Source: Deltaproteobacteria bacterium tcs-42 (lineage in GTDB: Bacteria; Desulfobacterota; Desulfuromonadia; Desulfuromonadales; Geopsychrobacteraceae). From it: a stretch of DNA of 64,000 nucleotides. Positions 4,134 through 29,061 of this stretch are shown here, piece after piece; position 1 is the stretch's first letter, and the number at the start of each line of letters is the position of its first letter. The DNA lies in NCBI GenBank assembly GCA_002049545.1, contig LLYT01000001.1:5605-69604 (forward strand). The letters run 5' to 3'. Below the pieces are notes generated by a model. It searched no databases. It worked only from the letters and a program-made list of their open reading frames with translations, and was not told where the DNA came from. The position numbers and the translations under genes are program-made.

Positions 4134-4210
4134 CGGGATGTGGCGCAGTCTGGTAGCGCACTTGACTGGGGGTCAAGGGGCCGGAGGTTCAAATCCTCTC
4201 ATCCCGACCA
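4134..4210 (+). tRNA. tRNA-Pro(GGG)
   Basis: CGGGATG...CATCCCG acceptor stem, D loop GTCTGGTAG, anticodon arm CTTGA-CTGGGGG-TCAAG, GGTTCAAATCC T arm, encoded CCA end. Confidence 0.97.
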
Positions 4211-15412: not shown

Positions 15413-16450
15413 ATGGCCAATATCGTTGTCTGTGCAGATGGAACCTGGAATCGTCCGGAAGAGGATATTGAAAAGGATTTTCCGACAAATGTTTTGAGGC
15501 TGGCTCGGGTTATCAAGCCTTCTGCTGATGGAGTCAAGCAGCATGTCTTTTATGACTGGGGATTGGGCTCGTACCATCACACTTTGACTGCCGGAGCAAC
15601 CGGCCGCGGCATACATAAAAATATTTTGGATGGGTATCGTTATATCGTTCAAAACTATGCCCCCGATGACAACATTTATCTGTTTGGTTTCAGCCGCGGC
15701 GCCTATACCGTAAGGGCACTGTGCGGCCTGATCAACAACTGCGGTATTTTGCATCGCCCCGATGCCAATCTTATTTCCGCCGCCTGGAAAATCTATAAAA
15801 GCCCGGCCTCTAAAAACCGGCCGAAGGGGGAAGCGGCTCGTCTTTTTCGTAAAAACCACTGTCATCCTGCCAGAAAAGTACATTTTATCGGGGTCTGGGA
15901 CACCGTCGGTGCTTTGGGAATCCCTTTCAGTCTGATGGGGCTGTTCGAGAATAACGATGAATTTTATGACACAAAAATGGGTTCAAATGTCGCATTTGCC
16001 CGCCATGCATTGGCAATTGATGAGCAACGGGAAGATTTTACCCCAACAATCTGGACACCCAGACCCAACGTGAACCTCAAACAGGTCTGGTTTGCCGGGA
16101 CCCATTCGGATGTCGGCGGATCCTATCCTCCCGACAAAGAAACAGGAGTCAGGGTTTGCGATGCACCGCTGGGATGGATGCTGGATGAAGCGACAACGGC
16201 AGAATTGAAATTCGAACCCCACATAAAAGAATCACTGACGGACGGTAGCCGCGGGAAACTGCACAAATCGCGCAACCATGTATATCGATTGAAGTCTCCC
16301 TTGCACCGACCATTGATTGTTGATGGCCAGCCTACTATGGTTCATGCCAGCGTTAAGGACCGTTACCTGTCTGATAGTGGTTATCGTCCGCCACAATTGA
16401 AAAAGCTGGTTGAGGAGACCGGGTGGGAGAATTTAAATGTGCAGCTGTGA
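15413..16450 (+). CDS. DUF2235 alpha/beta-hydrolase (Tle1-like)
   Basis: VVCADGTWN, FGFSRGAYTVR (GxSxG), FIGVWDTVGALG, WFAGTHSDVGG. Confidence 0.88.
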   Translation: MANIVVCADGTWNRPEEDIEKDFPTNVLRLARVIKPSADGVKQHVFYDWGLGSYHHTLTAGATGRGIHKNILDGYRYIVQNYAPDDNIYLFGFSRGAYTVRALCGLINNCGILHRPDANLISAAWKIYKSPASKNRPKGEAARLFRKNHCHPARKVHFIGVWDTVGALGIPFSLMGLFENNDEFYDTKMGSNVAFARHALAIDEQREDFTPTIWTPRPNVNLKQVWFAGTHSDVGGSYPPDKETGVRVCDAPLGWMLDEATTAELKFEPHIKESLTDGSRGKLHKSRNHVYRLKSPLHRPLIVDGQPTMVHASVKDRYLSDSGYRPPQLKKLVEETGWENLNVQL

Positions 16451-18519: not shown

Positions 18520-21414
18520 ATGACGCCCGCACCCGAAGCGGAAGCGCGTGTAAAGATCGATGAGTTGCTTACGGCAGCCGGATGGGATGTGCAGGACATG
18601 AATGCTGTCAACATCCATGCTGCTCGTGGTGTGGCTATTCGTGAATTCCCTCTGGCTTCTGGCCATGGTTTTGCTGATTACTTGCTTTATGTTGACGGCA
18701 AGGCCTCAGGCATCATCGAAGCGAAAAAGGTCGGCACCACGCTGACCGGGATTGAAATCCAGTCCGATAAATACACCAAAGGTCTTCCCGCAGGCCTCCC
18801 GCGCTGGCACAATCCGCTGCCATTCTCCTATCAGTCAACCGGGGTTGAAAATCGCTTCACCAACGGCCTCGACCCCAATCCCCGCTCACGCAACGTCTTT
18901 GCTTTTCATCGGCCGGAACAGCTTGCCAGCCTCATTGGCTCTGCAATTGTGGATCAGGGACTGCCTGCCGATCTGGGTGGAGCATCGTTTGCCGCTGAAA
19001 CTCTGCCGCAAACCTTCCTTGCCCGCCTGCAGAAGATGCCGCCATTAGTTGAAGAAGGTCTCTGGCCGGCTCAGATCAAAGCGATTACCAACCTCGAAGC
19101 TTCTCTGCGTGCCAATCATCCACGTTCGCTGATTCAGATGGCGACCGGTAGCGGTAAGACGTTCACCGCCATCAACTTCATCTACCGGTTGATCAAGTTT
19201 GCCGGGGCGCGGCGGGTGCTGTTCCTGGTCGATCGGGGCAACCTTGGGCGGCAGACCCTCAAGGAATTTCAACAATACGTTTCTCCCTACAACAACTTCA
19301 AGTTCAGTGAAGAGTACATCGTCCAGCATCTCAACTCGAACGTCCTCGATACCACCGCACGAGTGTCTATCTGCACCATCCAGCGACTCTATTCGATGCT
19401 CAAAGGACGTGACCTGCCCGAAGATCTGGATGAGGAATCGGTCGAGTTTGGGAGTTTGTTCAAGGAACCGGAGCCGATTGAGTACAACCCCGATATTCCT
19501 ATTGGCACTTTTGATGTTATCGTCACCGACGAGTGCCATCGTTCCATTTACAACCTCTGGCGGCAAGTGTTGGAATATTTTGATGCCTCCCTCATCGGTC
19601 TTACCGCCACCCCCAGCAAGCAGACCTTCGGTTTTTTCAATCAGAATCTGGTGATGGAGTACGGCCACGAACACGCCGTCGCCGATGGGGTCAATGTCAA
19701 CTACGATGTCTATCGCATTAAGACCGCCATTACAGAACAGGGCGGAGAAGTTGAGGCTGGTTATTACGTCGACAAGCGTGACCGTGACACCCGCCAGGTG
19801 CGTTGGGAGCAGTTGGATGATGATTTTGCCTACGAGGCCAAGCAGCTTGATCGGGATGTGTTTGCCGTTGACCAGATTCGCACGGTGATTCAGACCTACC
19901 GGAACAAACTGTTCAGCGAAATTTTCCCTGGTCGAACCGAGGTGCCAAAAACGCTGATTTTTGCCAAGGATGATTCCCACGCCGAGGATATCGTCAAAAT
20001 TGTCCGTGAGGAGTTCGGCAAGGGGAACGACTTTGCCCAGAAGATCACCTATCGTACTACTGGCGCCAAGCCGGAAGATCTGATTGCCTCATTTCGTAAT
20101 AGTTATTTCCCCCGCATTGCCGTCACTGTCGATATGATCGCCACCGGCACCGACATCAAGGCGTGTGAGTGTGTTTTCTTCATGCGTACCGTCAAGTCCC
20201 GCGCTTATTTTGAGCAGATGAAGGGTCGCGGGGTGCGGATCATCAATGACAACGACCTGCAAGCGGTGACCCCCGATGCTGTCACCAAAGATCATTTCAT
20301 CATTGTCGATGCCGTTGGTGTTTGTGAGATGGATCAGACCGATTCACGCCCCATGGAGCGCAAGAAGAATGTCGGTTTCGAAAAACTGCTGCAGGCGGTT
20401 GCTTTCGGCAATGCGGAAGCCGAGGTGATATCATCCGTCGCCGCCCGTCTGGCGCGGATGGAGAAGAAACTGACCGCCGAAGAGCATCAGCAGGTGGATA
20501 AGCTGCTCGACGGCAAAAGCCTCAAACAGCTTACCGGTGATCTGGTCGATGCCCTTAATCCGGATAATCATATCAGTGAGGTTTACCTGCGCCGAGCGGA
20601 GCAAGGCAGGCAGGCCGATACAACCGACCCGACACCGGAGGAAATTAAACAATCCGCCATTAAGCTGGTCGGTGAAACGGTTAAACCGCTCTGTAACCCG
20701 AATCTGCGTGAGCTGTTGCTGGAGATCAAAAAGAAGAACGAGCAGATTATCGACACGGTCAGTCCCGATACGCTCATTTTCGCTGGTTTTACAGAGGAGA
20801 AGGCCAAGGGCGTGGTCGAGTCGTTTGAGCAGTTTATCGCTGACAACAAAGATGAGATCACCGCATTGCAGGTACTGTACAGCAAGCCGTACAAGCAGCG
20901 GTTACGGTTTGAGGATGTACGTGAGTTGGCAGAGAAGCTGGTTGCCCAAGTGGAACAGTTGCGGGTTTACCAAACCCATCCGCAAGATTGGGAAAAACGG
21001 GTGCCGAATGAGCTGTGGCAGGCTTACCAGAAGCTGGAAGCAAGCAAAGTACGTGGCGCTGCAGCCAGCCATATTTTGACCGATCTGGTGTCACTGGTCC
21101 GTTTTGCCATGCATCAGGAGAATGAGTTGGTACCGTTTCCTGAGCGGGTCAATGCTAATTTCAAGGCATGGATGGCACAGCAGGAAAGCTCGCCTGCGCC
21201 CGGAGGGCAGGTAGGCGGCAAAAGCTTTACCGATGAGCAGCGCAAGTGGCTGGAGATGATTCGTGACCACATTGCCGCGAATCTGCTGATTGAGACGGAT
21301 GATTTTGATTATGCGCCTTTTGCGCAAGAAGGTGGGATAGGGAAGGTTTGGCAATTGTTTGGGGATGATTTGAGTAAGATACTTGATGAATTGAATGAGG
21401 CATTGGCGGCGTGA
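18520..21414 (+). CDS. hsdR: Type I restriction enzyme R subunit (EcoEI/EcoAI-like)
   Basis: ADYLL...IIEAKK nuclease motif, MATGSGKT Walker A, DECHR, EcoEI-type C-terminus; GGGAG RBS. Confidence 0.92.
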   Translation: MTPAPEAEARVKIDELLTAAGWDVQDMNAVNIHAARGVAIREFPLASGHGFADYLLYVDGKASGIIEAKKVGTTLTGIEIQSDKYTKGLPAGLPRWHNPLPFSYQSTGVENRFTNGLDPNPRSRNVFAFHRPEQLASLIGSAIVDQGLPADLGGASFAAETLPQTFLARLQKMPPLVEEGLWPAQIKAITNLEASLRANHPRSLIQMATGSGKTFTAINFIYRLIKFAGARRVLFLVDRGNLGRQTLKEFQQYVSPYNNFKFSEEYIVQHLNSNVLDTTARVSICTIQRLYSMLKGRDLPEDLDEESVEFGSLFKEPEPIEYNPDIPIGTFDVIVTDECHRSIYNLWRQVLEYFDASLIGLTATPSKQTFGFFNQNLVMEYGHEHAVADGVNVNYDVYRIKTAITEQGGEVEAGYYVDKRDRDTRQVRWEQLDDDFAYEAKQLDRDVFAVDQIRTVIQTYRNKLFSEIFPGRTEVPKTLIFAKDDSHAEDIVKIVREEFGKGNDFAQKITYRTTGAKPEDLIASFRNSYFPRIAVTVDMIATGTDIKACECVFFMRTVKSRAYFEQMKGRGVRIINDNDLQAVTPDAVTKDHFIIVDAVGVCEMDQTDSRPMERKKNVGFEKLLQAVAFGNAEAEVISSVAARLARMEKKLTAEEHQQVDKLLDGKSLKQLTGDLVDALNPDNHISEVYLRRAEQGRQADTTDPTPEEIKQSAIKLVGETVKPLCNPNLRELLLEIKKKNEQIIDTVSPDTLIFAGFTEEKAKGVVESFEQFIADNKDEITALQVLYSKPYKQRLRFEDVRELAEKLVAQVEQLRVYQTHPQDWEKRVPNELWQAYQKLEASKVRGAAASHILTDLVSLVRFAMHQENELVPFPERVNANFKAWMAQQESSPAPGGQVGGKSFTDEQRKWLEMIRDHIAANLLIETDDFDYAPFAQEGGIGKVWQLFGDDLSKILDELNEALAA

Positions 21415-22832
21415 GCAATAAGCAAAAAGAACTCCCTCAGACTTTGCCACGTTGGGAAGTGCCTGACAGTTGGAAATGGGTCAGTCTTGCTGATGTTGGG
21501 CAGGTTATTACAGGTAATACCCCTCCGACTTCTGACAAAAATAATTATGGGAATGATATCCCCTATGTAAAACCCCCGGAACTGGTGGATCGTGGGATTT
21601 GGACAACGCCCAATGGTTTGTCTGAAAAGGGTGCTTCCATTGCAAGAACCCTTCCTGCTGGTGCTGTACTTGTCTCTTGTATTGGCGGCCTTGGGAAAAC
21701 GGGTCTTGCAAAAGTACCAGTCGCATTCAATCAACAAATTAACGCAATCATTTTCAATGAGTGTGTCATTCCTGAATATGGTTTCTACTATGCTCAAACC
21801 TTAAATGAATGGCTCCAGGGGGTTTCCTCTGCGACTACTCTTCCGATAGTAAATAAGGGTAAATTTCAAAGAGCACCAATTCCTATTGCTCCTCCAGAGC
21901 AACAAAAAAGCATCGTTGCGGAAATCGAAAAGCAATTCTCCCGCCTCGACGAAGCCGTCGCCAATCTCAAGCGCGTCAAGGCCAACCTCAAACGCTACAA
22001 AGCCGCCGTCCTCAAAGCCGCCGTCGAAGGCAAGCTCACCGAAGAATGGCGTAAACAAAACCCCGATGTTGAACCAGCCGAGAAACTGCTGGAGCGGATT
22101 CTTGCCGAACGGCGTGAGAAATGGCAGGGGAGAGGGAAGTACAAAGAACCCGCTGCGCCGGATACCACCGATCTGCCGGAATTGCCTGAGGGGTGGGGTT
22201 GGTCCAACTTTGAGCAGCTCTCAGAAGCGATTCCCAATTCGCTTAAGGCTGGCCCATTTGGATCAGCTTTAAAGAAGTCCTTTTATGTTCCAGAAGGTTA
22301 TAAGGTTTATGGTCAGGAGCAAGTCATACGCGAAGACCCATATTATGGTGACTACTTCATTGACGAAGAACGTTATGAAAGCCTTAAATCTTGCGCCATC
22401 AAGCCGGGAGATATGCTTATAAGCTTGGTTGGGACAATTGGTCGTGTACTGATTTTGCCAGAAGATAGCGAGCCGGGAATAATCAATCCTCGCTTAGTAA
22501 AAATAAGTCTAAATACAGATATTGTTGAGCCTTTGTATATCAAGATTTTTCTCCAATCTCCGTTTGTAAAATACCTCTTCGCCCTGGCTTCCCATGGTGG
22601 AACTATGGATATTTTAAATCTTGGAATCTTGAAGGGAATACCTGTCCCTATTCCGCCTCTTCTAGAGCAAAAAGCAATATTGAATGAATTCGCTAGTTTT
22701 TCTTCGGTTGAGGAGAGATTGGAAGATACGGTGGGGGCAAATCAGGCGAGAAGTAATAGGTTGCGTCAGTCAATTTTGAAAAAAGCTTTCTCCGGTCAAC
22801 TGCTGCCAAGTTCTTACGTCGCTGAGAAGTAA
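21411..22832 (+). CDS. hsdS: Type I RM specificity subunit with two TRDs
   Basis: IPIAPPEQQKSIVAEIEKQFSRLD central region; PVPIPPLLEQ...LRQSILKKAFSG C-terminal region; GTG start overlaps hsdR stop. Confidence 0.92.
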   Translation: MSNKQKELPQTLPRWEVPDSWKWVSLADVGQVITGNTPPTSDKNNYGNDIPYVKPPELVDRGIWTTPNGLSEKGASIARTLPAGAVLVSCIGGLGKTGLAKVPVAFNQQINAIIFNECVIPEYGFYYAQTLNEWLQGVSSATTLPIVNKGKFQRAPIPIAPPEQQKSIVAEIEKQFSRLDEAVANLKRVKANLKRYKAAVLKAAVEGKLTEEWRKQNPDVEPAEKLLERILAERREKWQGRGKYKEPAAPDTTDLPELPEGWGWSNFEQLSEAIPNSLKAGPFGSALKKSFYVPEGYKVYGQEQVIREDPYYGDYFIDEERYESLKSCAIKPGDMLISLVGTIGRVLILPEDSEPGIINPRLVKISLNTDIVEPLYIKIFLQSPFVKYLFALASHGGTMDILNLGILKGIPVPIPPLLEQKAILNEFASFSSVEERLEDTVGANQARSNRLRQSILKKAFSGQLLPSSYVAEK

Positions 22833-22843
22833 AGGGGTTTGCT

Positions 22844-23545
22844 ATGAAATCTGAAAAGCTATGTCACATCAATATTTATTGCGACGAAAGCAGGCACACT
22901 TCTAACAGTGAAGATCCCTATATGGTTATTGGCGCTCTCGCCTGTACGCGTGAAAAAAAACAGGAAATTTATCACGTCATAAACCTGCTAAGAAAAAAGT
23001 ACAATGTTTGGAAAGAATTCGGCTGGAAAACTTTGTCGCCAAGTCGGAAGGATTTTTATTGGGAACTGCTTGAGCTTTTCCGTAATTCTGCTGATTTGAG
23101 TTTTCGCTGTCTTGTAGTCGATAGGAATGTTCTGGATCATGAGCAATACAGCGACGGTGATTCAGAGCTTGGTTTTTACAAGCTTTATTACCAGATGTTA
23201 GTGCATTGGTTGCAGCCGCAATGTGCTTATCACCTTTATCTTGATTGGCAGCAGAACAGAGAACAGGGACGTTTTCGGGATTTAGGTCATATTCTAGAGC
23301 GAAAGCTTTCTGGCCGAGCCAAAATTGAATGTCTTGAGCCGGTAAGCTCCAAAGAGCAGCACCTTGTCCAATTGTGTGATCTGTTTATTGGGGCGGTTGG
23401 ATACGCTTGGAATACCAGGGCGGGAAGTGACACCAAGGTTGAGTTTTGCAATGCATTGGCCGCGAACATGGAAATGTCTTCTTTGAAGGTGAGTACCTAC
23501 AAAAGTGAACAGAAATTCAATATCTTTCATTTTATAGGTCGCTGA
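22844..23545 (+). CDS. DUF3800 domain protein (RNase H-like acidic motifs)
   Basis: IYCDES N-terminal motif, YLD mid motif, VQLCDLFIGA C-terminal motif. Confidence 0.8.
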   Translation: MKSEKLCHINIYCDESRHTSNSEDPYMVIGALACTREKKQEIYHVINLLRKKYNVWKEFGWKTLSPSRKDFYWELLELFRNSADLSFRCLVVDRNVLDHEQYSDGDSELGFYKLYYQMLVHWLQPQCAYHLYLDWQQNREQGRFRDLGHILERKLSGRAKIECLEPVSSKEQHLVQLCDLFIGAVGYAWNTRAGSDTKVEFCNALAANMEMSSLKVSTYKSEQKFNIFHFIGR

Positions 23546-23546
23546 A

Positions 23547-24065
23547 ATGTCTGAACATCTCTGGTCTTTACTGAGGCTAAAGGCTGAATCGGGTGATGAA
23601 GTAAAGCAGGCATATTTTAAGAAATATCTTGAAATCTATGTACGCACTTCCGATGGGCAAACGGTCGAAATTTTCGATTGGTTAGGCAATCGAATTTTTT
23701 TCAATCCGCATTTTAATTCTTTTGATCACGCGTTTACTGAGAACAGGAATTACCGTCATAGTCATGGAGTGCATTCAAAAAAGTTATGTAAAAACCGTGC
23801 GAGACGGCTTCTCTGGATAAAGGAAACTCTCAAAGGAGAAGTAGGGACGATTGAGCGTCGGCAAGAGTTTCGAGAAGACAGTCGAGGGCGGATGAAAAAG
23901 AGACGGACTCTGGTTGTGTTGGAAGAGCTATATGTAGTTGTTCTGGAGGAGAGAGAGGGGCGCAATGGGTATGATTTTGTTTCCGCATTCCCTGCTGACG
24001 CAGATTATCTTCGGAAAATACGAAAAAGAAGTACTCTGCTGGAAACAAAAAAGCCCCAGTCTTAA
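23547..24065 (+). CDS. Basic hypothetical protein, possibly BECR/RelE-fold RNase
   Basis: 172 aa, Arg/Lys-rich; FDHAF, RARRLLWIK, YVVVLE, FVSAFP resemble PBECR-type nucleases from memory; starts 1 nt after the DUF3800 stop. Confidence 0.5.
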   Translation: MSEHLWSLLRLKAESGDEVKQAYFKKYLEIYVRTSDGQTVEIFDWLGNRIFFNPHFNSFDHAFTENRNYRHSHGVHSKKLCKNRARRLLWIKETLKGEVGTIERRQEFREDSRGRMKKRRTLVVLEELYVVVLEEREGRNGYDFVSAFPADADYLRKIRKRSTLLETKKPQS

Positions 24066-24129
24066 CGGCGACTGAGGCGCTGCCACGGTCCTGAGCCTTA
24101 AGCAAAGGGCCAACAGCCTTACGGCTTAA
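24043..24129 (-). ncRNA. Predicted ~85-nt small RNA convergent on the 23547-24065 gene
   Basis: Own sigma70-like promoter upstream, two hairpins, intrinsic terminator (fully paired with a U-G wobble only on the minus strand, followed by TTTTTTGTTT). Confidence 0.6.
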
Positions 24130-24134
24130 TTTAA

Positions 24135-24163
24135 ATATTACCCGACCTCGGCTTTCTGTGCAA
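24135..24163 (-). promoter_or_regulatory. sigma70-type promoter TTGCAC-N17-TAATAT for the predicted sRNA
   Basis: Plus strand ATATTA 24135-24140, 17-bp spacer, GTGCAA 24158-24163. Confidence 0.6.
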
Positions 24164-24209
24164 CAAAAATGTTGATTCAGTAAACAACCGACTCAAATGG
24201 ACAATAGAT

Positions 24210-24314
24210 ATGATTCCTGCAGCAACCATGTTAATACTCTGGAATTATTGTAATGCCCTCCCTGTCTGCCTCATTGTTTTCAGCGCGGGCAATCGCGATT
24301 TTTCGTGGAAGTAG
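24210..24314 (+). pseudogene. Degenerate hsdM 5' remnant #1 with a 33-nt palindromic insert
   Basis: MIPAATMLILWNYCNAL-[11 codons]-RD aligns to MTPAAIVSKLWNYCNVLRD of intact hsdM. Confidence 0.7.
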
Positions 24315-24420
24315 AATACGACACCTGTAGCTATTGTTAAGTAAGTATTGGATTTTGTTCGGGACACAATATTTGATTGCCCGGATCAATAAACGCTTAC
24401 GGCGGATAAAGGTATGATAA

Positions 24421-25422
24421 ATGAACCCTCAAACTGAACAGAATGAGATTGTTCTCTTTCAGACGGACGATGGTCAGACGCAGCTTAAAGTTCAGCTTGA
24501 CCATGATACCGTCTGGCTGAGTCTCTATCAAATGGCAGAGCTTTTTCAGCGGGACAAATCAGTCGTCTCCAGGCACGTGAACGCTATTTTTAAAAGTGGC
24601 GAATTGGTGCGAGAGACAACTGTTGCAAAAAATGCAACAGTTCAGATTGAAGGCGGGCGTGAGGTCCAAAGGAGCATCGAATACTTTAATCTTGATGTTA
24701 TTATCTCCGTCGGCTATCGCGTCAATTCCAAACTCGGAATTCTGTTCCGCCAATGGGCTACCCGCGTTTTACGTGACCACCTGGTCAAAGGCTACAGCAT
24801 CAATGAACAGCGTTTGCGTGAAGAGACTGCCAAGTTGCGGGAAATGCAACAGACTGTCGATTTGCTTGCACGCACCCTGACCACTCAGGAATTGATCACT
24901 GCCACCGGTAAAGATGTGTTGCGTGTCATCAGTGACTATGCCTACGCACTGGCCACGTTGGATCGTTATGATCACGGCAGCTTGATTATTGATAAAACCA
25001 CCGCCAAAGTCTTGCATGTCATCGACTACGAGGAAGGCATTGCTCTGGTCAGGTCGATGAAAGGGGAGTTTGACGGTCTGTTTGGCATCGAAAAAGATCA
25101 GGGGTTCAAGAGTGCTCTTGGCACCATCTACCAGACATTTGATGGTAAAGAACTCTATCCCAGTGTCGAGGAAAAAGCCGCCAATCTGCTCTATTTTGTG
25201 GTGAAAAATCACGCATTCAGTGATGGCAACAAGCGTATAGCTGCGGCAATATTTATCTATTTTCTCGCTGCCAACGGTATTTTGTATCGTCCCGATGGCT
25301 CCAAGCGCCTTGCCGACAACGCTTTAGTGGCATTGACCCTGTTGATTGCCGAAAGTCGGCCTGAAGAGAAAGAGACGATTGTCAAAGTCATCATCAACCT
25401 TATCAACCGGAGTAACGACTAA
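24421..25422 (+). CDS. RhuM-like DNA-binding domain fused to Doc-type Fic domain
   Basis: TVWLSLYQMAELF, YFNLDVIISVGYRVNS (RhuM-like); HAFSDGNKRIA (Doc-type motif). Confidence 0.85.
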   Translation: MNPQTEQNEIVLFQTDDGQTQLKVQLDHDTVWLSLYQMAELFQRDKSVVSRHVNAIFKSGELVRETTVAKNATVQIEGGREVQRSIEYFNLDVIISVGYRVNSKLGILFRQWATRVLRDHLVKGYSINEQRLREETAKLREMQQTVDLLARTLTTQELITATGKDVLRVISDYAYALATLDRYDHGSLIIDKTTAKVLHVIDYEEGIALVRSMKGEFDGLFGIEKDQGFKSALGTIYQTFDGKELYPSVEEKAANLLYFVVKNHAFSDGNKRIAAAIFIYFLAANGILYRPDGSKRLADNALVALTLLIAESRPEEKETIVKVIINLINRSND

Positions 25423-25427
25423 ATATT

Positions 25428-25661
25428 ATGACCTCAGCTGCAATTGTATCCAAACTTTGGAATTTCTGTAACGTTCTTCGCGACGATGGCATGAGCTACC
25501 TGTCTGCGTGCGGTCACGCACAGGCAGGCGGCGACTACGTCCCTGCCTGCATTTCATGCGCAGGCAAGGAACAGTTCACCTATCTGCTTTTTCTCAAAAT
25601 GGCAGACGAGCGAACCAAACCGCCCTACAACCAGCTAAGCAATATCCCGAGTCATTGTTGA
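25428..25661 (+). pseudogene. hsdM 5' remnant #2 with two in-frame palindromic inserts (30 and 27 nt)
   Basis: Collinear with the first ~56 codons of intact hsdM apart from inserts LSACGHAQAG and PACISCAGK; homology stops just before the fic gene. Confidence 0.9.
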
Positions 25662-25662
25662 T

Positions 25663-26304
25663 ATGATGTCCCCTTCAGTTCGCTACGACACATCCGGCTT
25701 GCCGGAAGACCAATATGAACCCGGTTCAGATAGATCTGTTCTGAAAAATCTGCGTGGAATTACCTCTTCGGAAGAGATGCAGATTGTTGAGACAGAGGAA
25801 TTGTGGCGAACACAAGAATATCTATTGGGAGAGATTGAACAAGATCAGAAATTCACTGTTAATGATATCTATGAAATGCATCGAATCTGGCTCGAAACGG
25901 TTTATTCGTGGGCCGGAAAAGATCGTCAGGTCAATATCAGCAAAGGCGGGTTCGATTTCGCCATGGCTCGGGTGATTCCGAACATGATGGCGGAGTTTGA
26001 GCGGAAACAGTTGGCGGTACATACCCCGTGCCAATGTACCGATATAAATGAAATCGCTCAGGCTCTGGCGCAAGTGCATGTAGAGCTGATGCTGATACAC
26101 CCCTTTCGTGAGGGGAACGGTAGACTCGGTCGTTTATTTGCCACACTGATGGCATTGCAGGCAGGTTTGCCGCTACTTGATTTCAGTGATTGGTCAGGAT
26201 TAAAGAGAGAAGAATACTTTGCTGCGGTTCGTGCAGGCATGGATATGAAATATGATCCGATGAGGCAACTATTTCTTGAGGTGATAGAAGGTTCAGGCAG
26301 ATAA
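25663..26304 (+). CDS. Fic-domain AMP-transferase (class I FicT-like toxin)
   Basis: Canonical HPFREGNGRLGR motif; YEPGS...VLKNLRGI N-terminus. Confidence 0.9.
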   Translation: MMSPSVRYDTSGLPEDQYEPGSDRSVLKNLRGITSSEEMQIVETEELWRTQEYLLGEIEQDQKFTVNDIYEMHRIWLETVYSWAGKDRQVNISKGGFDFAMARVIPNMMAEFERKQLAVHTPCQCTDINEIAQALAQVHVELMLIHPFREGNGRLGRLFATLMALQAGLPLLDFSDWSGLKREEYFAAVRAGMDMKYDPMRQLFLEVIEGSGR

Positions 26305-26317
26305 CGGAAGAGGCCGG

Positions 26318-26536
26318 TTAAGATTTCTTTGAGGTGTTGTAGTTCGTCCCGGAGGTAGATTCGTGGACGCAGTTTGTCGAGCTGCTGTTCTTGGATACGA
26401 ACTGTCCCGTAACAGCATCACGCTTGACGCTAATCCCTTCAATTGCGGAAGACGATTCTATGTTGCGAGTCATCGATTTTTCACGAATTGAGCGGTTTTG
26501 AAGATGTCGATTGGTTGTTAATAGTGACTTTTTCAT
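26318..26536 (-). CDS. Small putative Fic antitoxin (FicA-like)
   Basis: 72 aa with SSAIEG matching the (S/T)xxxE(G/N) inhibitory motif; ends 13 nt from the fic stop. Confidence 0.6.
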   Translation of the reverse strand: MKKSLLTTNRHLQNRSIREKSMTRNIESSSAIEGISVKRDAVTGQFVSKNSSSTNCVHESTSGTNYNTSKKS

Positions 26537-26600
26537 GTCGCTAATTATACAAGAAGCAACAATTTTTATCAGTAAAATAATAAACAGGACAGGAACTTAA

Positions 26601-28136
26601 ATGACACCTGCAGCAATCGTATCAAAACTCTGGAACTACTGTAACGTCCTCCGCGACGACGGCATGAGCTACGGCGACTATGTCGAACAGCTCACCTATC
26701 TGCTTTTTCTCAAAATGGCAGACGAACGGACCAAGCCGCCGTACAATCAACCGAGCAATATCCCGGCTGAATATTCATGGGCAACACTGGCGAAGAAGGA
26801 CGGTGACGAACTGTTCGACCACTACCGCCATACCCTGGAAAACCTCGGCAACGAAAAAGGTCTGCTCGGTCTGATCTTTAACAAGTCGCAGAACAAATTC
26901 CAAGACCCTGCCAAACTGCGTCGCCTGATTGTCGATTTGATCGACAGTGAAAACTGGTCGGTGATGAGCGCCGATGTCAAAGGTGATGCCTACGAGGGGC
27001 TGCTGGAGAAAAATGCTCAGGACACCAAGAGCGGTGCCGGGCAGTATTTTACCCCGCGTCCGCTGATTCAGGCGATAGTTGATGTGGTTGCTCCCAAACC
27101 GGGGGAGACCATCAGTGACCCGGCCTGCGGAACCGGTGGTTTCTTGCTTGCGGCGCACGACAGCCTGGTCGACAACCATCCGCACATGACCAAAGACGAG
27201 CGGAAAAAGCTTAAGGAGGGGACCTTCAAGGGTTGGGAGTTGGTGCAGTCGACAGCACGGCTCTGTGCCATGAACCTGATGCTGCATGGTATCGGTGCCG
27301 GTAATGGCAGTACGAATCTTCCTTTAGTCGTCTCTGATTCTCTAGCGGCTGATCCGGGCGACCGTTTCGACATCATCCTCACCAATCCCCCCTTCGGAAA
27401 GAAGAGCAGTACTACCATTGTTGGTGAAGACGGCAAGGTTGCCAAAGAGAAGGAAACCGTTGAGCGTGACGACTTCTGGGCAACAACCTCAAACAAGCAG
27501 CTCAACTTCATCCAGCACGTCAAAACCCTTCTCAAACAGCATGGCCGTGCCGCCGTAGTTGTGCCGGACAACGTGCTGTTCGAAGGCGGAGCAGGGGAGA
27601 CCATCCGCCGCAAGCTGCTGCACGAATGCGATGTTCACACCATCCTGCGTCTGCCGACCGGACTCTTCTACGCCCAAGGGGTCAAAGCGAACGTTATCTT
27701 TTTCGACCGCAAACCAGCCAGTGAAACGCCCTGGACAAAAAAGCTATGGATTTACGATCTGCGCACCAATACGCACTTCACCCTGAAAACCAATCCGCTC
27801 AAACGCAGTGATCTGGATGATTTTGTCGCTTGCTATTCTGCGGGGAACTTGAAAGCTCGCAAACCGACTTGGACGGAAAATATGAAGGACGACTTGCCTG
27901 CGCAAAACGACAGTTTTGCAGGCAGGTGGCGCAGTTACGACTACGAAGACTTGATCGCCCGCGACAAAGCCAGCCTCGATATCTTCTGGCTCAAGGATGA
28001 TTCGCTGGAGGATTCAGACAACCTTCCAGAGCCGGGTGTACTGGCTGCAGAGATTGTTGAAGATCTGCAGGCGGCTTTGGAGCAGTTTAGGGAGATTGCT
28101 GAGGATTTGGGCGAAGACGAGTTTGTTGCCGAATAA
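26601..28136 (+). CDS. hsdM: Type I RM N6-adenine methyltransferase
   Basis: GQYFTPR, DPACGTGGFL (motif I), NPPF (motif IV); AGGA RBS. Confidence 0.95.
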   Translation: MTPAAIVSKLWNYCNVLRDDGMSYGDYVEQLTYLLFLKMADERTKPPYNQPSNIPAEYSWATLAKKDGDELFDHYRHTLENLGNEKGLLGLIFNKSQNKFQDPAKLRRLIVDLIDSENWSVMSADVKGDAYEGLLEKNAQDTKSGAGQYFTPRPLIQAIVDVVAPKPGETISDPACGTGGFLLAAHDSLVDNHPHMTKDERKKLKEGTFKGWELVQSTARLCAMNLMLHGIGAGNGSTNLPLVVSDSLAADPGDRFDIILTNPPFGKKSSTTIVGEDGKVAKEKETVERDDFWATTSNKQLNFIQHVKTLLKQHGRAAVVVPDNVLFEGGAGETIRRKLLHECDVHTILRLPTGLFYAQGVKANVIFFDRKPASETPWTKKLWIYDLRTNTHFTLKTNPLKRSDLDDFVACYSAGNLKARKPTWTENMKDDLPAQNDSFAGRWRSYDYEDLIARDKASLDIFWLKDDSLEDSDNLPEPGVLAAEIVEDLQAALEQFREIAEDLGEDEFVAE

Positions 28137-28158: not shown

Positions 28159-29061
28159 ATGCAATCCATAATTTCTATTGCGACGCCTGCAGCTCTTTAC
28201 CTACTAGGTGTTTTCCTCTTTACCTTTCCGCTTGTCTGGCTACAGAAACGCAAGCAGAAAGGTAAAAGATCACCTTTAAGTGGTCATTTGTTGCGTAGTC
28301 CTGGCACTTCATTGCAGAGCCGGATCGAAGAATTGAGTTTGGATATCATGGCATATATTGCTATTTTTCCTGCCTTCCCGCTGCTGATTTATTCGTTTTA
28401 TCTCCCATTGATTCATGCTCAAAAGACCACGACCTATAGTGTTTTGATCATCATTGGTATCGTGATTGTAGTGTTACTTTGGATTGGCATTAAGGTCTAT
28501 CGATTGATGACGGAAAGAAATAACTGTCGCTTGGGTCTCGATGCAGAAATGGCGGTAGGTCAAGAACTTAACCAGCTTATGTTTAATGGGTTTCGAGTTT
28601 ATCATGACTTTCCGGCGGAAAATTTCAACATTGATCATGTCGCGGTTGGTCCGACAGGCGTCTATGCCGTTGAGACGAAAGGGAGGACAAAGGCGATTAG
28701 AAAGGCCGGAAAGGTTGAGGCGACTGTCGTTTATGATGGAAAGACACTGCAATTTCCAAGTTGGTATGAAACCGAACCGTTACTGCAGGCACAACGTCAA
28801 GCCGACTGGCTCAGAAAATGGCTAACCAGTGCAGTTGGCGAGCCGGTGTATGTGCAAGCAGTTTTGGCTCTCCCAGGATGGTATGTTGTACGTAAAGCTG
28901 ATCGACCAATAAAACTGATCAGTGGTAAAGAAGCCTATTCCCTGGCAAAACCAAGCGGCATTACCCTTCTTGGTAACGACATGATCCAACGGATTTCCCA
29001 TCAGGTCGAACAGCGTTGTCGGGACGTTGAACCGGTTGCTTACCGAAAAGAAAAGAAATAA
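28159..29061 (+). CDS. Membrane-anchored NERD (nuclease-related) domain protein
   Basis: N-terminal TM helices, GLDAEMAV, YHD, NIDHVAVGPTGVYAVETK. Confidence 0.8.
   Translation: MQSIISIATPAALYLLGVFLFTFPLVWLQKRKQKGKRSPLSGHLLRSPGTSLQSRIEELSLDIMAYIAIFPAFPLLIYSFYLPLIHAQKTTTYSVLIIIGIVIVVLLWIGIKVYRLMTERNNCRLGLDAEMAVGQELNQLMFNGFRVYHDFPAENFNIDHVAVGPTGVYAVETKGRTKAIRKAGKVEATVVYDGKTLQFPSWYETEPLLQAQRQADWLRKWLTSAVGEPVYVQAVLALPGWYVVRKADRPIKLISGKEAYSLAKPSGITLLGNDMIQRISHQVEQRCRDVEPVAYRKEKK

What the first reader, a model, noticed from the sequence alone, without database searches (positions are those of the whole stretch)
20586..27926. Family of 23-34-nt palindromic mini-elements inserted in frame into the hsd genes
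Seen: six related hairpins with CCTG(C/T)CTGC or CTTGCCTGC...GCAGGCAGG-type ends at 20586-20614 and 21193-21215 (hsdR), 24261-24293, 25500-25529 and 25542-25568 (hsdM remnants), and 27893-27926 (hsdM). Comparison with intact hsdM in this window shows three are clean insertions of 33, 30 and 27 nt, all multiples of 3. The reverse complement of 25542-25568 (CTTGCCTGCGCATGAAATGCAGGCAGG) shares both ends with 27893-27926 (CTTGCCTGCGCAAAACGACAGTTTTGCAGGCAGG), so both orientations occur; loops vary. I noticed none in the core genes. Established analogy: Rickettsia palindromic elements and REP sequences. Inference: a tiny mobile element family that adds peptide loops to defence proteins and arrived with horizontally acquired hsd DNA; insertion status of the hsdR and hsdM copies is inferred.
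Basis: partly seen in the sequence, partly recalled or inferred. Interest (0 to 1): 0.75.

Follow-up and report, generated by a model that had tools for sequence, protein, structure and literature searches.

The report
Tiny palindromic inserts in restriction genes
Six copies of a 27-34-base hairpin-forming DNA repeat have been inserted, in reading frame, into the genes of one restriction-modification defence system; the same repeat family is scattered through many environmental bacteria and sits mostly inside defence genes, so it is a gene-tolerated kind of selfish DNA and not a chance sequence feature.

Summary
Three copies (25499-25528, 25542-25568, 27893-27926) are strong hairpins. The two in the hsdM fragment at 25428-25661 are clean 30- and 27-nt insertions relative to the intact hsdM. 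Three more (20582-20614, 21189-21215, 24261-24293) are decayed copies, recognised only by comparison with homologues. All six lie in the hsd locus, and none lies elsewhere in the 64 kb.

The family has a fixed architecture: 7-bp outer stem CYTGYCT/AGRCARG, a 2-nt GC bulge, a variable but complementary 4-7-bp inner stem, and a 3-5-nt loop. Lengths are nearly always 27, 30 or 33 nt, and most copies have no stop codon in any frame.

The 30-mer at 25499 occurs, with two loop bases left free, in more than 120 metagenome contigs at about 110 different sites. These insertions show no target duplication and often lie in hairpin loops. Verified internal hosts are mostly R-M, BREX or DISARM-type genes. 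In 84 hsdM-centred loci from several phyla, 18 of 19 model hits lie in hsd operons.

Best reading: a REP/RPE-like non-autonomous element, moved in trans by an enzyme I could not identify. It is a new variant of a known kind (intragenic REPs). Its bias towards defence genes and towards the hsdM 5' end is unexplained.

The parts
25499..25528 (+). 'Type A' 30-mer: CCTGTCT GC GTGCG GTCA CGCAC AGGCAGG. It is inserted between A and C of codon 24 (AGC TA|C) of the hsdM 5' fragment and encodes LSACGHAQAG.
   Evidence: Clean 30-nt insertion versus the intact hsdM, with no target duplication. Model hit at E 2e-5. Fold z = -2.9. The same 30-mer occurs at about 110 other contexts.
25542..25568 (-). 27-mer in reverse orientation. 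On the minus strand it reads CTTGCCT GC GCAT GAA ATGC AGGCAGG. It is inserted between codons 28 and 29 (GTC|GAA) and encodes PACISCAGK.
   Evidence: Clean 27-nt insertion with no duplication. The best model hit is on the minus strand, E 0.015. Fold z = -2.3. No exact copy was found in viral contigs.
27893..27926 (+). 34-mer in the intact hsdM: CTTGCCT GC GCAAAAC GACA GTTTTGC AGGCAGG. It encodes LPAQNDSFAGR in the variable linker before the C-terminal region. The net insertion is about 30 nt.
   Evidence: Absent from 116 of 120 homologues, and present at the same site in P0059, P0072 and P0114 and in L140. Stem pairs show compensatory changes. The close relative L334 has an empty site. The segment aligns to a gap in the solved HsdM structure 2okc. 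Fold z = -3.7.
24261..24293 (+). Decayed 33-nt copy, CCTGTCT GC CTCATTGTTTTCAGCGC GGGCAAT, inserted between codons 17 and 18 (NAL|RD) of the first hsdM 5' fragment. Homology to hsdM ends 6 nt after it.
   Evidence: 33-nt insertion versus the intact hsdM. The same site carries well-formed family copies in L140 and, twice, in L177. It no longer folds and the model does not detect it.
21189..21215 (+). Partly decayed 27-mer in the second variable loop of hsdR: CTCGCCT GC GCCC GGA GGGC AGGTAGG. It encodes part of S-PAPGGQVG-GKS.
   Evidence: 8-aa insertion shared only with P0123. The same site carries other variants with the same ends in P0122, P0138, P0141 and P0181. The orthologue in L335/L336 is better preserved. 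Fold z = -1.25 and model E 3.6, so the sequence alone is not significant.
20582..20614 (+). Old, decayed 33-nt copy in the first variable loop of hsdR: TTTACCT GC GCCGAGCGGAGCAAGGC AGGCAGG. It encodes VYLRRAEQGRQ.
   Evidence: It replaces AKAKKDFA of most homologues and is shared by P0122, 123, 125, 126, 138, 141 and 179-182. Fold z = -1.8 and model E 6.6. This is the weakest member.
18520..21414 (+). hsdR, the host gene of two copies.
   Evidence: ORF.
24210..24314 (+). hsdM 5' fragment 1 (codons 1-17, then the insert, then RD). It lies upstream of a RhuM/Fic gene (24421-25422).
25428..25661 (+). hsdM 5' fragment 2: a 77-codon ORF covering codons 1-57 of hsdM plus two inserts. It stays open through both inserts, and its stop lies 1 nt before the ATG of a Fic gene (25663-26304).
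   Evidence: L123-L125 have the same fragment-Fic-hsdM layout, with an ATGA overlap.
26601..28136 (+). Intact hsdM. It is the host of one copy and the reference for the empty sites. Its codons 22-32 (26663-26696) form a native DNA hairpin whose loops are the insertion hot spot.
   Evidence: The native hairpin has z = -2.8.

Best explanation
These are copies of a non-autonomous, REP/RPE-like miniature palindromic element family.

Shown:
- The unit is a 27-34-nt hairpin. It has a conserved 7-bp foot (CYTGYCT / AGRCARG), a 2-nt bulge (GC, sometimes GT) on one side that gives it an orientation, a freely varying but complementary inner stem, and a small loop.
- Copies are placed at many unrelated sites without duplicating the target. 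Type-A copies sit between a purine and a C.
- Insertion in loops of existing hairpins, including loops of other copies, is far more frequent than chance.
- Family sequences are nearly all 3n long and mostly free of stop codons in all six frames.

Inferred:
- Because of the 3n length and the lack of stops, a copy landing in a gene adds 9-11 residues rather than breaking the gene. Copies therefore persist where extra loop residues are tolerated: the variable linkers of HsdR and HsdM, and non-functional hsdM 5' fragments. In fragment 2, staying in frame may also preserve translational coupling to the downstream Fic gene.
- Copying is done in trans by a single-strand, hairpin-recognising enzyme of the HUH (RAYT or IS200/IS605) type. 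I give this about 0.4, because no such gene was found.
- The hot spot at hsdM codons 24-28 arises because those conserved codons themselves form a 30-nt DNA hairpin.

In this window the two hsdR copies and the copy in the intact hsdM are old and came with the hsd genes. The age of the three copies in the hsdM fragments is unknown.
For: Family and architecture:
- The arm pattern occurs only in the hsd locus (shuffles give 0.2).
- The architecture was parsed from 42 copies.
- Inner-stem covariation across variants: 16 double-change cells against 6.4 in shuffles, 0 of 500 shuffles as high.
- At the orthologous hsdM site, 90% of cells pair, 3 pairs have compensatory changes, and 1 of 500 shuffles reaches the score.

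Insertion, not ancestry:
- Empty sites exist in the paralogous intact hsdM, and 120 homologues have no insertion in that N-terminal stretch.
- L334, 85.6% identical at the nucleotide level, has an empty site for the 27893 copy and carries copies at other sites.

Dispersal:
- The 30-mer is in 8 viral contigs and more than 120 metagenome contigs, with 111 distinct flank pairs, some of them AT-rich and intergenic.

Mode of insertion:
- No target duplication in any case with a known empty site (window copies, L226, L300, L141, L176, L177).
- For type A, the base before the element is R in 95 of 110 contexts and the base after it is C in 82 of 110.
- 11 of 110 copies are nested in the loop of another family member. 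8 have flanks complementary over 6 bp or more, against 0.6 in controls.
- The native hsdM hairpin at codons 22-32 has z = -2.8. Its loops hold the SY|G, DY|V and V|E sites, which are used by this family and by an unrelated Nitrospira repeat family.

Compatibility with coding:
- 36 of 43 distinct sequences are 3n (p about 1e-11 against one third). Arm pairs with no inner stem are 47% 3n.
- 36 of 44 have no stop in any of six frames, against a shuffle mean of 17.
- 17 of 18 extra copies in the type-A contigs are 3n.

Tolerant positions:
- The same two HsdR loops and the same HsdM linker carry other repeat-derived peptides in other lineages.
- The HsdM linker is a gap in the alignment to solved structure 2okc.

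Precedent: short REPs inside genes that encode 7-16 residues are documented (PMC3733652).
Against: - No mobilising gene was found. There is no RAYT in the window. The only two RAYT-like ORFs in 128 element-bearing contigs are flanked by other repeats.
- There is no GTAG or CGTC tag, which marks most described REPs.
- Copy number per genome is unknown.
- In about 1 Mb flanking 84 hsd loci the model finds no copy, although 18 lie inside the hsd operons. Tolerance alone does not easily explain such concentration, nor the excess in short non-coding hsdM fragments.
- Near-identical 30-mers occur in loci from different phyla, which is unusual for REP families. These are normally specific to a species or genus.
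- All 12 verified internal type-A copies are in the sense orientation. A purely neutral DNA parasite would not be expected to show that.
- No read data for this organism could be found to show filled and empty alleles side by side.
Confidence: 0.7

Rival explanations
1. The hairpins are recombination sites, comparable to integron attC sites or Xer sites. A recombinase uses them to move cargo genes (Fic, RhuM, DarTG and others) into hsd operons, and this process creates the duplicated hsdM 5' fragments.
For: - The architecture is attC-like in miniature: conserved foot, extrahelical bases on one side, variable centre and variable length.
- hsdM 5' fragments upstream of cargo genes are common, in at least 20 of about 82 loci.
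- In several fragments the homology to hsdM ends within 9 nt or less after a copy (window 24261-24293; L123; L140 at 8958; L177 at 2994).
- In L195 a copy joins hsdM codon 71 directly to codon 18.
- In L177 the same 33-mer occupies one site in both orientations in two fragments.
Against: - Most copies are not at cargo boundaries. They lie inside intact hsdM, hsdR and hsdS, in unrelated genes, and in intergenic DNA.
- Window fragment 2 ends without a copy at its boundary.
- No recombinase gene recurs in the element-bearing loci I annotated.
- Breakpoints next to hairpins are also expected from ordinary hairpin-induced breakage, or from recombination between 30-bp repeats.
Confidence: 0.1
2. The hairpins are selected, functional structures in defence-gene mRNA or in the non-template DNA strand. 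They would, for example, tune the expression of restriction subunits or of downstream cargo genes. They are not neutral parasites.
For: - Stem pairing is kept by compensatory changes at the orthologous hsdM site in five diverged loci.
- The T-G wobble lies on the sense strand in type A and in the 27893 copy. All 12 verified internal type-A copies are in the sense orientation.
- There is a strong excess in defence genes.
Against: - Across all variants in hsd loci, orientation is 10 plus to 9 minus. The 25542 copy is antisense.
- Three of the six window copies have decayed without loss of the host ORF.
- Sites differ between close relatives: L334 lacks the 27893 copy.
- Copies also occur in intergenic, AT-rich DNA and nested inside each other.
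- Palindromes can keep their pairing through template-switch repair without any selection.
Confidence: 0.1
3. The element is aimed at defence genes. A mobile genetic element would encode an enzyme that shoots hairpins into conserved R-M, BREX or DISARM sequences to disable host immunity. The in-frame copies seen today would be the survivors.
For: - Concentration in defence loci: 18 of 19 model hits lie in hsd operons, with none in about 1 Mb of flanks.
- 9 of about 110 type-A contexts lie inside R-M or BREX-type genes or hsdM fragments.
- There are 6 copies in an 8.8-kb DISARM-like plus DarTG locus.
- The hot spot sits in the most conserved part of hsdM.
Against: - No such enzyme or carrier element was seen.
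- A family that is 3n long and free of stop codons is poorly suited to knocking genes out.
- Other, unrelated repeat families occupy the same HsdR and HsdM loops in other lineages. This fits tolerant positions, long exposure through horizontal transfer and hairpin-structured targets at least as well.
- Most copies are outside defence genes.
Confidence: 0.07
4. These are not insertions. The peptides would be ancestral loops lost elsewhere, or the palindromes would be chance products or local template-switch (quasi-palindrome) products.
For: - hsdR site 1 and the hsdM linker copy are shared by sub-clades of homologues and are not clean indels.
- The 3' arm of the 27893 copy overlaps native codons.
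- Codon periodicity alone gives 47% 3n spacing for arm-like words.
Against: - Empty sites exist in the paralogue and in 120 homologues.
- The 30-mer (two loop bases free) lies at about 110 unrelated contexts.
- Shuffles give 0.2 hits against six sites.
- A local template switch cannot create the same 30-mer at unrelated loci.
Confidence: 0.02

Closest known systems
Intragenic REPs (repetitive extragenic palindromes found inside genes; Di Nocera et al. 2013, PMC3733652), thought to be mobilised by RAYT transposases
   Same: They are 20-40-nt imperfect palindromes that are dispersed and occur singly, paired or nested. Some copies sit in frame inside genes and encode 7-16 residues. The reported hosts are biased towards DNA-handling enzymes (UvrA/B/D, RecBCD, helicases, polymerases). 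G-T pairs in the stems indicate one preferred strand.
   Different: This family has no GTAG or CGTC tag and no linked RAYT gene was found. The 30-mer, allowing two free loop bases, occurs in loci of several phyla rather than one species or genus. Lengths are almost always 3n. Hosts are mainly R-M, BREX or DISARM genes. This family and hsd hosts are not in that paper's tables.
Rickettsia palindromic elements (RPE; Ogata et al. 2000, from my own knowledge; cited in PMC3733652)
   Same: Palindromic selfish DNA that inserts in frame into protein-coding genes, has no stops, adds a peptide segment and is tolerated by the host protein.
   Different: RPE-1 is about 100-150 nt and is restricted to Rickettsia. 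This family is 27-34 nt, occurs in free-living environmental bacteria and viral contigs, and concentrates in defence genes. Sequence similarity to RPEs was not tested.
IS200/IS605-family single-strand transposition and its miniature derivatives (PATEs)
   Same: Hairpin ends with an irregularity in the stem, insertion without target duplication, a short target motif next to the insertion point, and a preference for single-stranded or structured DNA. These parallels rest on established knowledge of IS608 and ISDra2. They are works-like comparisons only.
   Different: The target information here is only about 2 nt (R|C). The elements are one hairpin, not two different ends. No TnpA gene is associated with them.
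Integron attC sites
   Same: Imperfect palindromes with conserved ends, a variable centre and length, and extrahelical bases that define the active strand. They are associated with arrays of promoterless accessory genes.
   Different: The core sites (RYYYAAC/GTTRRRY) are absent. The length is 27-34 nt against 57-141 nt. No integrase is present, and most copies are not at cassette boundaries.
Bacterial MITEs (Correia/NEMIS, RUP and others)
   Same: Non-autonomous, dispersed, and sometimes inserted in genes.
   Different: MITEs are 70-300 bp with terminal inverted repeats and target-site duplications made by DDE transposases. Here there is no duplication and the whole element is a single small hairpin.

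Membership tests
REP elements (sensu Di Nocera 2013 / RAYT-mobilised) | Short (20-40 nt) imperfect palindrome able to form a stem-loop | tested here: met
   Copies are 27-34 nt. Fold z is -2.3 to -3.7 for three window copies. Covariation was shown.
REP elements (sensu Di Nocera 2013 / RAYT-mobilised) | Many dispersed copies within a genome, mostly extragenic | tested here: inconclusive
   About 110 distinct contexts were found across metagenomes. No whole genome could be examined, so per-genome copy number is unknown. There are 0.25 further copies per 10 kb in element-bearing contigs and none in about 1 Mb flanking hsd loci.
REP elements (sensu Di Nocera 2013 / RAYT-mobilised) | GTAG or CGTC tetranucleotide tag at one end | tested here: not met
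   Flank composition for 110 type-A contexts shows only R at -1 and C at +1. Flanks of the other variants are heterogeneous.
REP elements (sensu Di Nocera 2013 / RAYT-mobilised) | A RAYT (PF01797) gene flanked by copies (REPtron) in the same genome | tested here: inconclusive
   None in the 64-kb window. Two RAYT-like ORFs were found in 128 element-bearing contigs, and both are flanked by other repeats. Whole genomes were not available.
Rickettsia palindromic elements (RPE) | In-frame insertion in functional genes, no stop codons, palindromic | tested here: met
   Insertions of 27, 30 and 33 nt that stay open. 36 of 44 family sequences have no stop in any of six frames. Hosts are intact and have Pfam domains.
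Rickettsia palindromic elements (RPE) | Sequence homology to RPE-1..RPE-8, and a Rickettsia host | not tested
   No RPE sequence was compared. The host is Desulfuromonadales-like, judging by the best HsdM and HsdR relatives.
MITE derived from a DDE transposon | Target-site duplication flanking the element | tested here: not met
   No duplication at any site with a known empty allele (window 25499 and 25542; L226, L300, L141, L176, L177).
Integron attC site | R''/R' core sites (RYYYAAC ... GTTRRRY) and an adjacent IntI integrase | tested here: not met
   The ends are CYTGYCT ... AGRCARG. No integrase was found among the annotated neighbours.
IS200/IS605-type (HUH) single-strand mobile DNA | Insertion without duplication next to a fixed short target, with hairpin recognition | tested here: inconclusive
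   No duplication, an R|C target and a preference for hairpin loops are compatible. The enzyme and the strand bias relative to replication could not be tested.

The most novel reading that the evidence does not exclude
The family is more than a tolerated parasite. It would be a cross-phylum mini-hairpin element whose life cycle is tied to defence loci. It could preferentially enter R-M, BREX or DISARM genes and the conserved hairpin in the hsdM 5' end. Alternatively it could serve as the breakpoint or recombination site through which cargo genes are shuffled into type I R-M operons, leaving the hsdM 5' fragments behind. Its 3n, stop-free design would then be an adaptation to living inside genes.
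Probability: 0.2. Interest if true: 0.85.

Novelty: new variant of a known kind. Interest (0 to 1): 0.62.

Why it matters
Selfish DNA that lives inside genes without breaking them is known from only a few cases, namely Rickettsia RPEs and some intragenic REPs. This family is much smaller than RPE-1, is found in loci of several phyla, and appears built for coding DNA: lengths are multiples of three and most copies have no stops in any frame.

Its concentration in restriction-modification and other phage-defence genes has three consequences:
- Many small "lineage-specific loops" in defence proteins may be repeat insertions and not adaptations. This matters for annotating, aligning and engineering these enzymes.
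- The element can serve as a marker for tracing horizontal movement and rearrangement of defence operons.
- The hot spot at a native hairpin in the hsdM 5' end gives a concrete, testable target for working out how REP-like elements choose their sites and which enzyme moves them. That question is still open for most REP families.

Tried and rejected
- **RAYT search.** tblastn with the RAYT domain of P0232 against the window and all fetched loci found only L149, which is the same in-frame RAYT inside hsdR. An HUH...YxxNP motif scan gave two ORFs (L216, L244), both flanked by other repeats. No enzyme can be assigned.
- **Length periodicity in the broad viral-contig pattern scan.** It gave 66:42:19. 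I did not use it as evidence on its own, because codon periodicity alone gives 47% 3n for arm pairs without an inner stem.
- **Exact searches for the 25542 and 27893 variants in viral contigs.** No hits.
- **Type-A 30-mer in PLSDB plasmids.** No exact match, only partial chance-level hits.
- **Public reads for this locus, to look for filled and empty alleles.** No run holds more than 7% of the words.
- **The look-up of encoding contigs for the window's own HsdM.** Not on record.
- **Survey of the protein database for hosts of the element peptide LSACGHAQAG.** A padded 12-sequence profile retrieved only 3 candidates and none scored. This used the last protein search without result.
- **DNA-level hyperconservation of the hsdM 5' end as the reason for the hot spot.** Synonymous-codon identity is only slightly raised (0.58-0.62 against about 0.52). 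Rejected as the main cause.
- **A shared cargo gene in element-rich hsd loci as candidate mobiliser.** Cargo differs between loci (DUF3800, RhuM/Fic, Fic, NERD; DarT/DarG, Mrr-like, DUF6883; TPR protein, Fic).
- **A low-gap-penalty DNA aligner for listing insertions.** It over-extended into non-homologous DNA. Only insertions also seen by tblastn or by eye were used.

Full report
**1. The locus**

The finding lies in a type I restriction-modification locus. Its parts are:

| Coordinates | Feature |
|---|---|
| 18520-21414 | hsdR |
| 21411-22832 | hsdS |
| 22844-23545 | DUF3800 gene |
| 23547-24065 | unknown ORF |
| 24210-24314 | first hsdM 5' fragment |
| 24421-25422 | RhuM/Fic gene |
| 25428-25661 | second hsdM 5' fragment |
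| 25663-26304 | Fic gene |
| 26601-28136 | intact hsdM |
| 28159-29061 | NERD gene |

The best HsdM and HsdR relatives (85-90% identity) are from Desulfuromonadales. L334, a relative with shared flanking markers, carries a differently loaded hsd operon between the same tRNA-Pro and ADH gene, so the locus lies in a variable region.

Yes. The proposed regular expression hits 25499-25528, 25542-25568 and 27893-27926 exactly. Allowing two mismatches recovers all six claimed sites. Every hit at that threshold lies between 20582 and 28262, while shuffled windows give 0.2.

Against the intact hsdM, the second fragment carries clean insertions of 30 nt and 27 nt on either side of the native GDYV codons. 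The first fragment carries a 33-nt insertion after codon 17. None of 120 HsdM homologues has an insertion in that N-terminal stretch.

The six copies differ in quality:
- As DNA hairpins, three are clearly better than shuffles (z = -2.9, -2.3 and -3.7). The two hsdR copies are marginal, and 24261-24293 no longer folds.
- A covariance model built only from copies found elsewhere detects the same three and nothing else convincing in the 64 kb. The hsdR copies score at noise level.

**3. The hsdR copies**

Alignment of 120 HsdR homologues shows two variable loops.

- Loop 2: the window and P0123 have an 8-residue insertion (PAPGGQVG). P0122, P0138, P0141 and P0181 have insertions at the same place with the same end residues (SLP...GQ(V/A)G) but different middles. 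The DNA of P0122 (L335) is a well-formed 27-mer, CCTGCCT AC GCCC GTA GGGC AGGTAGG, which is orthologous to window 21189-21215.
- Loop 1: the window's VYLRRAEQGRQAD replaces AKAKKDFA. It is shared with about ten homologues, some only 70% identical. It is therefore an old, inherited and decayed copy, not a clean insertion.

**4. Architecture**

Parsing copies from the window, from hsd loci and from a pattern scan of viral contigs gives one plan:

5'-C(C/T)TG(C/T)CT | GC (sometimes GT) bulge | inner stem of 4-7 bp | loop of 3-5 nt | inner stem' | AG(G/A)CA(G/A)G-3'

- The bulge makes the element asymmetric. By this criterion five window copies are in the sense orientation and 25542-25568 is reversed.
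- Inner stems differ between variants but stay complementary: 16 cells have changes on both sides against 6.4 in shuffles, and 0 of 500 shuffles score as high. The sequences had been chosen partly for pairing, so this result is descriptive.
- At the orthologous hsdM linker site in five diverged loci, 90% of cells pair. Three pairs show compensatory changes (for example A-T, G-C and C-G at one position), and 1 of 500 shuffles reaches the covariation score.

**5. A dispersed family**

With its two central loop bases left free, the 30-mer at 25499-25528 (pattern CCTGTCTGCGTGCGNNCACGCACAGGCAGG) is present in 8 viral contigs.

The 130 matches have 111 different flank pairs, including AT-rich and apparently intergenic DNA. 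This rules out chance, local template switching and ancestral peptides for the strong copies.

Further family members occur in those contigs at about 0.25 per 10 kb, and 17 of 18 are 27, 30 or 33 nt long. No exact copy is in the PLSDB plasmids.

**6. How copies are placed**

- Wherever an empty site is known (window 25499 and 25542; L226, L300, L141, L176, L177), there is no target-site duplication.
- For the 30-mer, the base before the element is a purine in 95 of 110 contexts and the base after it is C in 82 of 110.
- Eleven of 110 copies sit in the loop of another family member, once in the loop of the same 30-mer. Eight have flanks complementary over 6 bp or more, against 0.6 in flank-swapped controls.
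- These features are those of hairpin-recognising, single-strand (HUH-type) transposition as known for IS200/IS605 and proposed for REP/RAYT. That is an inference. No such gene was found in the window or beside copies elsewhere.

**7. Compatibility with coding**

- Among 43 distinct well-formed sequences other than the 30-mer, 36 are multiples of three (p about 1e-11 against one third).
- Arm pairs without an inner stem, a control for codon periodicity, are 47% 3n.
- 36 of 44 family sequences have no stop codon in any of the six frames, against a mean of 17 in shuffles.
- The 30-mer keeps its length in intergenic DNA too. The 3n length is therefore a property of the family, not only of the genic survivors.

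**8. Where the copies live**

I fetched 80 loci around hsdM homologues from species-representative genomes (72-90% protein identity). They come from Desulfuromonadales, Nitrospirota, Beta- and Gammaproteobacteria and even Actinomycetes.

Over 84 such loci (1.3 Mb) the model gives 19 distinct hits at E <= 1. Eighteen are inside hsd operons, and none is in the roughly 1 Mb of flanking DNA (hsd genes cover 22% of the DNA). Orientation among these hits is 10 plus to 9 minus.

Sites recur:

| Site in HsdM | Loci |
|---|---|
| KL\|WN | L123, L179 |
| NVL\|RDD | window 24261, L140, L177 twice (opposite orientations) |
| RDD\|G | L300 |
| SY\|G | window 25499; L131 has a different, poorly palindromic 30-nt insert at the same site |
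| V\|E | window 25542 |
| ADE\|R | L226 |
| PPY\|N | L141, L176, L140, L126, L179 |
| C-terminal linker | window 27893, L121, L123, L126, L140 |

Independently of hsd, the Pfam-verified hosts in which the 30-mer is truly internal are:
- BrxC;
- a DUF1156 DNA methylase;
- three HsdR of another family;
- a Type III Res;
- an N6/N4 methylase;
- Prim-Pol;
- one epimerase.

In ordinary genes (glycosyltransferase, VanY, HAD, DHQ synthase, SPOR protein) the element sits at the very end of the open frame, which probably means outside the gene.

One 8.8-kb DISARM-like locus with DarT/DarG (L218) holds six copies.

All 12 verified internal copies of the 30-mer are in the sense orientation. By my calculation the two-sided p is about 5e-4.

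**9. Why the hsdM 5' end?**

The same codons also attract an unrelated Nitrospira repeat family (PSTxLRTG) at GDY|V. Other repeat-derived peptides (PSPxxGEG, PEPVEG, GRHPGESRG) fill the same two HsdR loops and the HsdM linker in other lineages. So the targets, not only this element, are special.

- The HsdM linker is a gap relative to the solved structure 2okc, which suggests a tolerant loop.
- For the N-terminal hot spot, the native sequence of codons 22-32 (CATGAGCTACGGCGACTATGTCGAACAGCTCACC) is itself a DNA hairpin: z = -2.8 in the window and -2.55 in L162. The SY|G, DY|V and V|E sites fall in its internal and apical loops.
- The NVL|RDD site lies in the loop of a weaker 4-bp hairpin (z = -0.8, not significant).
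- Given the loop preference measured in section 6, I consider structure-directed insertion the best explanation for the hot spot. This is an inference.
- DNA-level hyperconservation is not the cause.

**10. History of the window's copies**

- The 27893 copy shares its left flank (N(M/L)KD(D/A)) and its core with copies in hsdM genes only 78-81% identical at the protein level. The close relative L334 has an empty site and a different copy 20 codons upstream. This copy is therefore old. It has moved with, and between, hsdM alleles, and the pattern of copies turns over.
- The hsdR copies are likewise inherited.
- For the three copies in the fragments no close relative with the same fragments was found.
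- The 77-codon fragment ORF stays open through both inserts and stops one base before the Fic start codon. L123-L125 have the same fragment-Fic-hsdM layout. Selection for translational coupling may explain why this fragment remained in frame. This is an inference.

**11. Comparison with what is known**

Short REPs inside genes, encoding 7-16 residues and frequent in repair and helicase genes, were described by Di Nocera et al. (PMC3733652). Rickettsia RPEs are the classic in-frame palindromic insertions.

The present family works like these. However, it fails one defining REP feature (the GTAG or CGTC tag) and cannot be shown to meet two others (a linked RAYT, and high copy number per genome). 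It is absent from that paper's tables, as are hsd hosts. A literature search for REPs in hsd genes found nothing relevant.

I therefore class it as a new variant of a known kind. The unexplained parts are the extreme concentration in defence operons, the cross-phylum spread of near-identical 30-mers, and the sense-strand bias. These keep open a more interesting reading, in which the element's life cycle or function is tied to defence loci.

Noticed in passing
window 24210-24314 and 25428-25661; also L121, L123, L132, L133, L135, L139-L141, L144, L149, L150, L161, L162, L173, L176-L179, L195: Fragments of the hsdM 5' end (first 17 to about 150 codons) lie upstream of the intact hsdM in at least 20 of about 82 loci from several phyla. 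They are usually followed by a cargo gene (Fic, RhuM, DarTG and others). This looks like repeated insertion of cargo by recombination at the conserved hsdM 5' end (for example single-crossover integration of a circle carrying that end). In the window and in L123 the fragment ORF is translationally coupled to Fic.
   Followed up: partly
L149 5707-6426 (protein P0232, 1147 aa): A complete REP-associated tyrosine transposase (PF01797) gene is fused in frame into HsdR variable loop 1. This is the same loop that carries repeat-derived peptides in other homologues.
   Followed up: partly
HsdR and HsdM homologues P0084-P0120 and P0185-P0240; L133, L141, L161, L138: Unrelated repeat families (peptides PSPxPxxGEG, LPSPASGRGAGG, PEPVEG, GRHPGESRG; PSTxLRTG in Nitrospira) occupy the same two HsdR loops, the HsdM linker and the GDY|V site. 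In L133 the insert is present both in a fragment and in the intact hsdM.
   Followed up: partly
L334 8693-10699, L335 4865-6463, L218 (DUF1156 methylase): A GIY-YIG nuclease domain is embedded in HsdS genes and in a DUF1156 DNA methylase of element-bearing loci. This is another apparently selfish insertion inside R-M genes.
   Followed up: no
L218 1-8845: A DISARM-like locus (DUF1156 methylase, SNF2 helicase with NOV_C) with DarT/DarG embedded holds six family copies in 8.8 kb. L140 (hsd locus of a Nitrospira MAG) also carries DarT/DarG and many copies.
   Followed up: partly
L177 1977-2009 and 2994-3026: The same 33-mer sits at the same hsdM site (NVL|RDD) in two neighbouring fragments but in opposite orientation (one mismatch). 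This is a flip/flop pair, which could arise from two insertions or from inversion of the hairpin interior.
   Followed up: no
L195 865-891: A family copy joins hsdM codon 71 directly to codon 18, so a rearrangement breakpoint lies exactly at the element.
   Followed up: no
window 4134-4210 versus L334 4013-4104: tRNA-Pro lies about 560 nt upstream of hsdR in the related contig L334 but 14 kb upstream in the window. The extra DNA encodes sensor kinases, an AraC regulator, an EamA transporter, a Tle1-like T6SS phospholipase (15413-16450) and an aspartyl protease. No integrase was seen.
   Followed up: partly
window 26318-26536 (minus strand): A 72-codon ORF of unknown function, with no Pfam match, lies antisense between Fic and hsdM. 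In L176 the equivalent Fic-hsdM spacer carries a type-A 30-mer.
   Followed up: no
L239, L240, L290, L305: The 30-mer is the core of a longer recurrent palindrome (GGGCACAATT-30-mer-CATTGTGCCCCTACAAAAT). This suggests composite or nested repeat families in some genomes.
   Followed up: no
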